Shown here: in pieces, positions 58,601 through 61,600 of the stretch
Numbering within the stretch: position 1 is the first letter of the stretch
How the letters are laid out: every line of letters starts with the position of its first letter
Origin: Escherichia coli
Lineage (GTDB): Bacteria; Pseudomonadota; Gammaproteobacteria; Enterobacterales; Enterobacteriaceae
NCBI RefSeq assembly: GCF_017348835.2
Contig: NZ_CP071375.1
Direction: 5' to 3' (one strand)
DNA: 64,000 nucleotides
Made by a program: the position numbers

Positions 58601-61600
58601 GCTTTGGCGTGATGACCGAAGAGGAACTGAAGCTGGCTGTAGCGGCAGCGCGTAAACGTGGTGAAAAAGTGGTAATGACCAACGGTGTCTTCGATATCCT
58701 ACATGCCGGGCACGTCTCTTATCTGGCAAATGCCCGCAAGCTGGGTGACCGCTTGATTGTTGCCGTCAACAGCGATGCCTCCACCAAACGGCTGAAAGGG
58801 GATTCTCGCCCGGTAAACCCACTCGAACAGCGTATGATTGTGCTGGGCGCACTGGAAGCGGTCGACTGGGTAGTGTCGTTTGAAGAAGACACGCCGCAGC
58901 GTCTGATCGCCGGGATCCTGCCAGACCTGCTGGTGAAAGGCGGTGACTACAAACCGGAAGAGATCGCCGGGAGTAAAGAAGTCTGGGCCAACGGCGGCGA
59001 AGTGTTGGTGCTCAACTTTGAAGACGGTTGCTCGACCACTAACATTATCAAGAAGATCCAACAGGATAAAAAAGGCTAACCGGAAAGCGGTTCACAGATC
59101 TCGCTTCGTACATGGCAGGCCTATTGACGCTGTTGTTTTTTCAACCTAGAGTAAAGGAACAAGGGTAAGGGAGGATTTCTCCCCCCTCTGATGAGTTGTT
59201 AGTAAGTCGGGAAACTTAACAGTAACAACACAACCAGTATGATGACGAGCTTCATCATAACCCTTTCCTTCTATAAGGCCCCTTCCTCGGGAGGGGCTTT
59301 CCCGTTTCAGCCCCTTGCTGACTCCCCGATTGTTGATGAGCGCCGGACCCCGCGCAATGCTTTCCCTGAAGCAGTTTTGCCTTCCCCGAGCGGTCACGCA
59401 AAACGCTGCAACGTCCTGAGCATTTGCACCTTTTAGCGGAACGCAGATATAAAAAATCCCCGGCTTTTTGGGCCAGGGATATGTGTTAATGAAACCTTCT
59501 TGACGCTGATTTTTTTTCAACCTAAAGTAAAGGAACAAGGGTGAGGGAGGATTTCTCCCCCCTCTGATTGGCTGTTAATAAGCTGCGAAACTTACGAGTA
59601 ACAACACAATCAGTATGATGACGAGCTTCATCATAACCCTTTCCTTCTGTAAGGCCCCTTCCTCGGGAGGGGCTTTCCCGTTTCAGCCCTTTGCTGACTC
59701 CCCGATTGTTGATGAGCGCCGGACCTCGCGCAACGCTTTCCCTGAAGCAGTTTTGCCTTCCCCGAGCAGTCACGCAAAACGCTGCAACAGCCTGATCATT
59801 TGCACCTTTTAGCGGAACGCAGATATAAAAAATCCCCGGCTTTTTGTGCCAGGGATGTTCATAGCTGAAAATTTATTCTACGTTTTCGGCGACGGGAGTT
59901 GTTGAGGTTAAGGGTGAAGTCAATGCAGCCAGTGAGCCGCCTGAAACGCCAATTTCATTGAGCAAGGAGTCAATCAGTGGTGCCTGTGTGCGGTAAGAGA
60001 GTGCGGCTGATAATGCTTGTTCCGCCAGGTTTCCGCCCCCCACATTACCCGTGTTTGCATCCCCCGCAGTACCACCACGATTCAGACCATCGACCTGAAT
60101 AATCTTGATACCGTCAATGGACTTCATCGGCTCAACGGATTTCTCAATTACCGCAGGCAGCGCCTGCAATAATGCCAGTTTGAATTTAAGGCTGGTTTGT
60201 TCATCAGAAAGTACGTTGATAGCATCGTTCAGCGCACGTTGCGCTTCTGCTTCCGCCAGACCTTTTTTACGCGTAGCTTCAGCTAACTCAACGATCGCCG
60301 CCGCCTGCATCTCTGCCGCTTCTTTCTCTGCTTTCGCCCGCACGGTCAGTTCAACCGCTTTGGTTTCCGCATCCTGCGCTGCGGCAATCAGCGCCACCTG
60401 CTTGGCACGATCGGCTTCGGCAGTCTGGCGAGTGGTTTCAACGTTTTGTTGGGCGCTTACTGCTTCTGCGAGTGCAAGGTTAGCACGCGCTTCTGCCTGG
60501 GACTGTTGTTCCGATTTGGCGGCAATAGCGATCGATTTCGTCTGGTTAGCGATTTCGGTGACCTGCTGCTGTTCGATCTCTTTAATGCGAACTTCACGTT
60601 CAGCTTCAACTTTTCTTGAGCGGACGGCCTGTTCGCGGTCGATTTCTGTTTCCTGAATCTGTCGTTCAGCCAGAATTCGCGTCTGCTCTGCTTCACGACG
60701 ACGTTCAGCTTCAAAAGCCGCAATTTTCGCATTCTGCTCAGCGGTACGGGTTTTAACCTGCTGCTCCTGCTCAAGCGTCATAAACGCTTCTTGTTGTTCA
60801 ATCTCCAACTTGCGCGAAAGTGCATCACGGTTTTTCTCACGCACCGCAACTTCTACATCCTGTTCAACTTCGTTACGTTCGCGACGACGACGCTCCGTCT
60901 CCTGAGTCAGTTTGGTTAAACCTTCGGCGTCAAAGGCATTGTTCGGATTGAAATGTTCTTTCGAGGTCTGGTTAAAGTTGGTAAGTGAAACGCTTTCCAG
61001 TTCCAGGCCGTTTTTCGACAGATCTTCAGCTACGGTATTTTGTACTCCCTGCACGAAGTTCTCGCGGGTATCCTGTAACTCATGCATGGTCATTTGTGCA
61101 GCTGTTGCACGGAGGGCATCGACGAATTTATCTTCAACCAACATACGTAAATCTTCTGGTGATAGCGTGCGTTGCCCCAACGTTTGGGCAGCGGTGGCAA
61201 TCCCTTCTACTGAAGGTTTTACCCGCACAAAGAAAGCGACTACTACATCGACGCGCATACGATCTTTCGTAATCAGGCTATCAATGGTTGAGCGGCTGAC
61301 TTCCAGCTTCAGAGTATTCATATTGATGGGGATTATTTCATGAAAGATCGGCATCACGATTGCGCCACCGCTCATTACCACTTTTTGCCCACCTAAACCA
61401 GTACGAACAAAAGCTTGCTCTGCCGAAGCGCGACGATAGAGCCTGGCGAAAATAATTCCAATAATAAACAGAATGCATACGGCAATAATCGCGGTAAACA
61501 TCCAGGAGGGCACAGAATTAACAATATCATCCATTATTAAATTTCCTTTTGATTAATAAATTACAATATTTGGGGCCAGGGATTGTTTTCCGCCAAATAT

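What the first reader, a model, noticed from the sequence alone, without database searches (positions are those of the whole stretch)
59141..59875. Two tandem ibs/Sib type I toxin-antitoxin repeats between hldE and yqiK
Each ~375-bp unit encodes a 19-aa hydrophobic peptide on the minus strand (MMKLVIILVVLLLLSFPTY; MMKLVIILIVLLLVSFAAY) opposite a terminator-ended antisense transcript, matching the known ibsD-sibD / ibsE-sibE loci. The six-frame track instead shows four overlapping 60-130-aa ORFs here that would be mis-annotated as proteins. The two copies differ at four residues.
Basis: partly seen in the sequence, partly recalled or inferred. Interest (0 to 1): 0.3.

Follow-up and report, generated by a model that had tools for sequence, protein, structure and literature searches.

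The report
E. coli sibE/ibsE and sibD/ibsD pair

Summary
Both the observation and the interpretation hold. The window is E. coli; this stretch is 100% identical to strain PE164 and 96% identical to K-12.

- **Repeat:** a 376-bp unit occurs 1.9 times at 59124-59856, with 93% identity between copies.
- **Antitoxin RNAs:** each unit matches Rfam RF00113 (SIB_RNA) on the + strand at 141 and 147.7 bits, against a gathering score of 56.
- **Toxin peptides:** each unit encodes a 19-aa peptide on the - strand. These are MMKLVIILVVLLLLSFPTY at 59199-59258, identical to K-12 IbsE, and MMKLVIILIVLLLVSFAAY at 59575-59634, identical to K-12 IbsD. Both pass Pfam PF13956 (Ibs_toxin).
- **Transcript coordinates lifted from K-12:** sibE 59159-59302 and sibD 59535-59678.
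- **Long ORFs:** the four ORFs (130, 65, 83 and 65 aa) exist but are by-products of the repeat. One-base indels shift the frame of all four in K-12, they match no protein family, and RefSeq does not annotate them.

Small additions:
- The unit nearest hldE is the E pair.
- Only about 150-200 bp is shared with sibA/B/C, so the D/E unit is a younger local duplication. It also copied the yqiK terminator.
- Differences between the copies cluster in the published target-recognition zone.
- About 79% of complete E. coli genomes carry the pair and about 21% carry one unit.

The locus is already known and interest is low.

The parts
59124..59152 (+). sibE promoter: -35 TTGACG (59124-59129), 17-nt spacer, -10 TAGAGT (59147-59152)
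   Evidence: The promoter scan found this site. It falls in positions 1-29 of the Rfam SIB_RNA model, which begins at the -35 box. It is identical to K-12.
59159..59302 (+). sibE antitoxin sRNA (144 nt); terminator hairpin at 59275-59300
   Evidence: Coordinates were lifted from K-12 sibE (3195097-3195240) through the alignment. Rfam gives 141 bits. The fold has a minimum free energy of -51.8 kcal/mol and a z-score of -3.63, with a 3' hairpin followed by UUU.
59199..59258 (-). ibsE, a 19-aa hydrophobic toxin MMKLVIILVVLLLLSFPTY, with Shine-Dalgarno sequence GGAAAGGG just upstream
   Evidence: Translation is. The peptide is identical to K-12 IbsE and the DNA is identical to K-12 across the CDS. 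Pfam PF13956 gives 46.9 bits. It is annotated as ibsE in the identical strain PE164.
59320..59357 (-). Inferred ibsE promoter and start site: -35 TTGCGC (59357..59352), 17-nt spacer, -10 AACAAT (59334..59329), start near 59320
   Evidence: This is inferred. Han et al. 2010 (PMC2943612) report that ibs mRNA extends 18 nt beyond the Sib 3' end. The hexamers were read from the sequence. They score only 7 of 12 against consensus and fell below the scan threshold.
59456..59480 (-). Terminator-like hairpin on the - strand, followed by a T run; a duplicated copy of the yqiK terminator lying between ibsD and ibsE
   Evidence: The terminator scan found 9 pairs followed by TTTTTATATC. It lies inside the repeat unit.
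59500..59528 (+). sibD promoter: -35 TTGACG (59500-59505), 17-nt spacer, -10 TAAAGT (59523-59528)
   Evidence: Found by the promoter scan and covered by the Rfam model.
59535..59678 (+). sibD antitoxin sRNA (144 nt); terminator hairpin at 59651-59676
   Evidence: Coordinates were lifted from K-12 sibD (3194721-3194865). Rfam gives 147.7 bits. The fold has a minimum free energy of -54.7 kcal/mol and a z-score of -4.42.
59575..59634 (-). ibsD, a 19-aa hydrophobic toxin MMKLVIILIVLLLVSFAAY
   Evidence: Translation is. The peptide is identical to K-12 IbsD. Pfam PF13956 gives 40.9 bits. It is annotated as an Ibs family toxin in PE164.
59696..59733 (-). Inferred ibsD promoter and start site: -35 TTGCGC (59733..59728), -10 AACAAT (59710..59705), start near 59696
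   Evidence: Han et al. 2010 mapped the ibsD start site and used a 163-nt mRNA, which equals the 145-nt SibD plus 18 nt. The hexamers were read from the sequence. Placing the start site in the window is an inference, good to about 3 nt.
59832..59856 (-). yqiK intrinsic terminator, 17 nt after the yqiK stop; it marks the end of the repeat
   Evidence: Found by the terminator scan. The TRF repeat ends at 59856.
59078..59092 (-). Weak terminator-like hairpin on the - strand that overlaps the hldE stop codon; a possible end for ibsE read-through transcripts
   Evidence: The scan found 5 pairs followed by AGCCTTTTTT. This is a consensus match only.

Best explanation
The region holds two tandem, cis-antisense type I toxin-antitoxin modules. 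They are the E. coli orthologues of ibsE-sibE (next to hldE) and ibsD-sibD (next to yqiK).

In each 376-bp unit, a weak promoter on the - strand drives a roughly 160-nt ibs mRNA. That mRNA encodes a 19-residue hydrophobic inner-membrane peptide that is toxic when over-produced. On the + strand, a stronger sigma-70 promoter drives a roughly 144-nt Sib RNA. The Sib RNA is perfectly complementary to the whole ibs reading frame, its ribosome-binding site and part of its 5' UTR.

Sib contacts its own ibs mRNA first through two short recognition regions: TRD1 inside the reading frame and TRD2 over the translation start. Pairing then spreads, ribosome binding is blocked, and the duplex is cut by RNase III. 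Little or no toxin is therefore made.

The two modules stay insulated from each other because their sequences differ mostly within the recognition zone.

Shown here: the sequence anatomy, family membership, orthology and the clustering of differences. Taken from published K-12 work: expression, toxicity, repression and RNase III cleavage.
For: - **Antitoxin RNA:** Rfam SIB_RNA matches both units at 141 and 147.7 bits against a gathering score of 56.
- **Toxin peptide:** Pfam Ibs_toxin gives 46.9 and 40.9 bits against a cut-off of 27. The peptides are identical to K-12 IbsE and IbsD.
- **Orthology:** the hldE-yqiK intergenic region is 96.0% identical to K-12, with no differences from the Sib promoters through the ibs start codons. 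K-12 annotates sibD, ibsD, sibE and ibsE there. RefSeq annotates ibsE and an Ibs family toxin at the same coordinates in the 100%-identical strain PE164.
- **Transcription signals:** both Sib genes have a promoter of the form TTGACG, 17 nt, TAGAGT or TAAAGT. Both RNAs fold more stably than shuffles (z-scores -3.6 and -4.4) and end in a hairpin followed by UUU.
- **Insulation of the two modules:** 10 of the 23 differences between the copies fall in Sib +35..+76, which is 42 of 357 positions (binomial P = 1.3e-4). This covers the TRD1 zone (+46..+68) of Han et al. 2010 (PMC2943612).
- **Mechanism from the literature:** Han et al. 2010 describe TRD1 and TRD2, cognate-only repression and an ibs mRNA that extends 18 nt beyond Sib. 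A review describes the translation block and RNase III processing (PMC4147584). RNase III-cut ibsD-sibD double-stranded RNA has been captured in vivo, and the ibsD mRNA is more stable in rnc mutants (PMC7373196).
Against: No result contradicts this reading. No expression, toxicity or repression data exist for this particular strain. The ibs promoters are weak matches (7 of 12) and their start sites were placed by homology, not measured. K-12 labels IbsD only as a 'putative toxic peptide'. In this strain the TRD2 regions of SibE and SibD differ at a single base, +115. Insulation through TRD2 may therefore be weaker than in K-12.
Confidence: 0.97

Rival explanations
1. The four long overlapping ORFs (130, 65, 83 and 65 aa) are real protein-coding genes, and the 19-aa ORFs are incidental.
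For: The ORFs are open in this strain, and two of them start with ATG.
Against: None matches a Pfam or NCBIfam family above noise. K-12 has a 1-bp deletion at window 59321 and a 1-bp insertion at 59655, and these shift the frame of all four. In K-12 the ORFs become 76 aa, 59 aa (with a different tail) and 47 aa, and the fourth is absent from the list of ORFs of at least 40 aa. RefSeq annotates none of them in the identical strain. The two ORFs on each strand resemble each other only because the DNA is repeated.
Confidence: 0.01
2. The locus is a decayed, non-functional relic: a repeat of the old 'QUAD/SIB' kind that no longer makes a working toxin or antitoxin in this strain.
For: About 21% of complete E. 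coli genomes have only one unit here, so a unit can be lost. The physiological role of chromosomal type I systems is still debated.
Against: Both ibs ORFs, their Shine-Dalgarno sequences, both Sib promoters and both terminators are intact. From the Sib promoter through the ibs start codon they are base-for-base identical to K-12, where the system has been shown to work (PMC2943612).
Confidence: 0.02

Closest known systems
E. coli K-12 sibE/ibsE (b4611/b4666) and sibD/ibsD (b4447/b4664)
   Same: The position between hldE and yqiK, the order and the orientation are the same. The peptides are identical, and the DNA is identical from the Sib promoters through the ibs start codons. The intergenic region is 96.0% identical overall.
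   Different: There are 32 differences, all outside the Sib-ibs core. They lie around the Sib 3' end and terminator, in the region upstream of ibs, and next to yqiK. The window's sibE carries sibD-like bases at +113 and +116, so the two TRD2 regions differ at one base here, against three in K-12.
E. coli K-12 sibA/ibsA, sibB/ibsB and sibC/ibsC (the other Sib repeats)
   Same: They belong to the same Rfam and Pfam families and have the same cis-antisense layout. The A/B pair is also tandem. DNA identity is 75-80% over about 150-200 bp.
   Different: Homology stops near the ibs start site. The further ~160 bp of the D/E unit, comprising the ibs upstream region and the terminator copy, is specific to this locus. 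The peptides differ: IbsA is MMKHVIILVILLVISFQAY, IbsB is MMKLLIIVVLLVISFPAY and IbsC is MMRLVIILIVLLLISFSAY.
Salmonella IbsA/SibA
   Same: It is a 19-aa Ibs-family type I toxin with a Sib antisense RNA (bioRxiv 10.1101/2025.05.26.656083).
   Different: It is a different paralogue in a different species. The reported target, the a and b subunits of the Fo sector of ATP synthase, has not been tested for IbsD or IbsE. The reported requirement for His3 would not apply, because IbsD and IbsE have Lys3-Leu4.

Membership tests
Sib antitoxin RNA (Rfam RF00113) | Match to the family covariance model at or above the gathering score | tested here: met
   The two units score 141 and 147.7 bits against a gathering score of 56, over the full model length 1-147.
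Sib antitoxin RNA (Rfam RF00113) | Encoded antisense to an ibs ORF, covering the whole ORF and its ribosome-binding site | tested here: met
   sibE (59159-59302) contains ibsE (59199-59258) plus 44 nt upstream of its start codon. sibD (59535-59678) contains ibsD (59575-59634) in the same way.
Sib antitoxin RNA (Rfam RF00113) | Own promoter and intrinsic terminator giving a ~140-nt transcript | tested here: met
   Promoter-like sites were found at 59124-59152 and 59500-59528. Each RNA ends in a 3' hairpin followed by UUU. The 144-nt lengths come from the K-12 annotation. These are sequence signals only.
Sib antitoxin RNA (Rfam RF00113) | Transcript is made and represses its cognate ibs mRNA | not testable with these tools
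   This has been shown in K-12 for SibC/ibsC and SibD/ibsD (PMC2943612), and ibsD-sibD double-stranded RNA has been seen in vivo (PMC7373196).
Ibs toxin (Pfam PF13956) | Match to the family HMM above the gathering score | tested here: met
   The scores are 46.9 bits (E = 2.3e-12) and 40.9 bits (E = 1.8e-10) against a cut-off of 27, over profile positions 1-19 of 19. No NCBIfam model matched.
Ibs toxin (Pfam PF13956) | An 18-19-aa, strongly hydrophobic peptide with its own start codon and Shine-Dalgarno sequence | tested here: met
   Both peptides are 19 aa with an ATG-ATG start. GGAAAGGG lies a few bases upstream.
Ibs toxin (Pfam PF13956) | Toxic on over-production (membrane damage or ATP loss) | not testable with these tools
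   This rests on the literature only (PMC2943612 introduction, citing Fozo et al. 2008). K-12 annotates IbsE as a 'toxic peptide' and IbsD as a 'putative toxic peptide'.
Orthologue of K-12 sibD/ibsD + sibE/ibsE | Same flanking genes and order (hldE - E unit - D unit - yqiK) | tested here: met
   The K-12 annotation, the PE164 annotation and the alignment agree on the order.
Orthologue of K-12 sibD/ibsD + sibE/ibsE | Near-identical sequence, unit by unit | tested here: met
   The intergenic region is 96.0% identical, and both peptides and both coding sequences are identical.

The most novel reading that the evidence does not exclude
The two tandem modules may exchange sequence by gene conversion. 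In this strain that exchange has made the TRD2 recognition region of SibE almost the same as that of SibD, with one difference where K-12 has three. If so, SibD could partly repress ibsE, and SibE could partly repress ibsD, which does not happen in K-12. Copy number and peptide identity at this locus also vary between E. coli lineages. Both points suggest continuing turnover of antitoxin specificity.
Probability: 0.15. Interest if true: 0.2.

Novelty: already known. Interest (0 to 1): 0.06.

Why it matters
The finding matters mainly as a calibration point. A reader working from raw sequence alone recognised a very small gene (19 codons) and its antisense RNA, both of which ORF-based annotation tends to miss, and correctly ignored four longer spurious ORFs. 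Biologically the locus is a textbook type I toxin-antitoxin pair that has been characterised in E. coli K-12 since 2008, so nothing new follows from its presence here.

Tried and rejected
- **Long ORFs as real genes:** I tested the four ORFs against Pfam and NCBIfam and found only noise. I then checked their frames in K-12 and all four are broken. Rejected.
- **NCBIfam model for the Ibs peptides:** none matched. Pfam did match. My first Pfam query joined two peptide copies to reach the 20-residue minimum. I repeated it properly with one upstream codon added.
- **Other copies of the unit in the 64-kb window:** none were found.
- **Fozo et al. 2008 (PMID 18710431, PMC2597788):** I tried to read it but it is not held. 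Its results are therefore cited only through papers that quote it.
- **Primer sequences in the supplement of PMC2943612, to fix the ibsD start site exactly:** no supplementary files are held. The start site was placed using the stated 18-nt overhang instead.
- **First multiple alignment:** it used poorly chosen K-12 ranges and was replaced by a pairwise global alignment.

Full report
**What is there.**
The stretch 59124-59856 is a tandem direct repeat. TRF reports a period of 376 bp, 1.9 copies and 93% matches. blastn aligns 357 bases of the two copies at 93.6% identity. It fills the gap between a 477-aa ORF on the + strand (57646-59079) and a 553-aa ORF on the - strand (59873-61534).

A megablast of 59050-59900 against all complete E. 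coli genomes found a match in 5,425 of 5,426. The match to strain PE164 is 100% identical. The flanking genes there are annotated hldE and yqiK, with two 60-nt genes between them named 'ibsE' and 'type I toxin-antitoxin system Ibs family toxin'. The window is therefore E. coli chromosome.

**The antisense RNAs.**
Rfam's SIB_RNA model (RF00113) matches both units full-length on the + strand. The hits are 59124-59273 (141 bits, E = 5e-30) and 59500-59649 (147.7 bits, E = 1.2e-31), against a gathering score of 56.

The Rfam model begins at the promoter -35 box, so its coordinates are not the transcript. I aligned the whole intergenic region to K-12 MG1655 (96.0% identity, 32 differences in 795 columns). 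I then lifted over the K-12 annotation:
- sibE lies at 59159-59302.
- sibD lies at 59535-59678.
- Both are 144 nt and on the + strand.

Each is preceded by a promoter-like site: TTGACG, 17 nt, TAGAGT at 59124-59152, and TTGACG, 17 nt, TAAAGT at 59500-59528. Both RNAs fold more stably than shuffled controls:
- sibE: -51.8 kcal/mol, z = -3.63.
- sibD: -54.7 kcal/mol, z = -4.42.

Each ends in an 11-pair hairpin followed by UUU.

**The peptides.**
The - strand encodes two 19-aa peptides:
- 59199-59258 gives MMKLVIILVVLLLLSFPTY.
- 59575-59634 gives MMKLVIILIVLLLVSFAAY.

They are identical to K-12 IbsE and IbsD respectively, and the coding DNA is also identical to K-12. Both pass Pfam PF13956 (Ibs_toxin) at 46.9 and 40.9 bits against a cut-off of 27. 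The unit next to hldE is the E pair and the unit next to yqiK is the D pair.

**The long ORFs.**
They match no family above noise. K-12 has a 1-bp deletion at window position 59321 and a 1-bp insertion at 59655. Each indel lies inside two of the ORFs, and the K-12 ORF list shows truncated or altered versions. RefSeq does not annotate them. They are by-products of G+C-rich repeated non-coding DNA.

**Further anatomy.**
- **ibs transcripts.** Han et al. 2010 (PMC2943612) mapped the ibsC and ibsD start sites. They state that the ibs mRNA overhangs the Sib 3' end by 18 nt, giving a 163-nt ibsD mRNA. This places the ibs start sites near 59320 and 59696 on the - strand. Just upstream in both units lies TTGCGC, 17 nt, AACAAT. 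This is a weak promoter match at 7 of 12. The placement is inferred.
- **Terminators on the - strand.** The hairpin at 59856..59832 lies 17 nt after the yqiK stop. An almost identical copy at 59480..59456 sits between ibsD and ibsE. The duplication that made the D/E pair therefore carried the yqiK terminator with it.
- **Age of the duplication.** Homology to K-12 sibA, sibB and sibC covers only about 150-200 bp at 75-80% identity and stops near the ibs start site. The 357-bp D/E repeat at 93.6% identity is therefore a younger, local duplication within an older family.
- **Where the copies differ.** Of the 23 differences between the two units, 10 fall in Sib +35..+76, which is 42 of 357 positions (binomial P = 1.3e-4). 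This covers the TRD1 recognition region (+46..+68 in SibC), which Han et al. showed is used to discriminate cognate from non-cognate ibs mRNA.

**How it works.**
The mechanism is taken from published K-12 work and was not tested here:
1. Sib RNAs pair with their own ibs mRNA through TRD1, inside the ORF, and TRD2, over the translation start.
2. Pairing spreads and blocks translation (PMC2943612; review PMC4147584).
3. The duplex is processed by RNase III. RNase III-cut ibsD-sibD double-stranded RNA was captured in vivo, and ibsD mRNA is more stable in rnc mutants (PMC7373196).
4. Over-produced Ibs peptides damage the cell envelope and are lethal (PMC2943612 introduction).

A 2025 preprint reports that Salmonella IbsA inhibits the Fo sector of ATP synthase. 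Whether this holds for IbsD or IbsE is unknown.

**Comparison and novelty.**
Every sequence-level defining feature of the Sib RNA family, the Ibs toxin family and the K-12 D/E orthologues was tested and met. The functional features could not be tested with these tools. Tandem duplication of ibs-sib in one intergenic region is itself described in the literature (PMC2887945). The locus is already known.

**Variation seen on the way.**
- The junction between the two units (59435-59565) is found whole in 4,276 of 5,426 complete E. coli genomes. About 79% therefore have the pair and about 21% have one unit. An example of a single-unit strain is AVS0282, whose peptide is MMKFVIILVVLLLLSFPTY.
- Strain UPEC69 has the IbsD peptide in the unit next to hldE and MMKLVIILIVLLLVSFQAY in the other.
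- In the window, sibE carries sibD-like bases at 59271 and 59274, where K-12 sibE differs.
- Both window copies have C at 59286 and 59662, where both K-12 copies have T.

These patterns suggest sequence exchange between the copies. They leave the TRD2 regions of this strain's SibE and SibD one base apart. This is the only mildly novel angle, and it was not tested further.

**Verdict.**
The locus is already known and of low interest.

Noticed in passing
window 59435-59565 (junction of the two units): Copy number varies within the species. The junction is found whole in 4,276 of 5,426 complete E. coli genomes, so about 21% carry only one ibs-sib unit between hldE and yqiK.
   Followed up: partly
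window 59271, 59274, 59286 and 59662; L006 (UPEC69) 450-509 and 827-886: There are signs of gene conversion between the tandem copies. The window's sibE has sibD-like bases near its 3' end. Both copies share a C in the terminator loop where both K-12 copies have T. UPEC69 has the IbsD peptide in the unit next to hldE and a new variant (…SFQAY) in the other.
   Followed up: partly
window 59216-59243 (+): A good promoter-like match (TTAACA, 16 nt, TATGAT; 10 of 12) lies inside sibE only. It would give a ~50-nt RNA ending at the Sib terminator. There is no evidence that it is used.
   Followed up: no
window 62454-63054: glgS (62454-62660, +) and ubiK/yqiC (62695-63054, -) are adjacent. K-12 has the ygiL-yqiGHI fimbrial cluster, with an IS2 insertion, between them (about 6.5 kb). 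This strain lacks that cluster.
   Followed up: partly
window 63116-63264 (+): An FMN riboswitch (RF00050, 120.9 bits) lies at the position where ribB is expected.
   Followed up: no
window ~17400-38800: Several RNA motifs typical of mobile elements lie between two tRNA genes (17433-17505 + and 38735-38807 -). They are an ALIL pseudoknot at 21892-22008 (+), EFASI at 23111-23262 (-), STAXI at 23699-23885 (-) and STnc490 at 25586-25709 (-). This could be a genomic island.
   Followed up: no
window 5443-5513 (-) and 51134-51204 (+): Two matches to naRNA4 (RF02564) score 63 and 79.3 bits.
   Followed up: no
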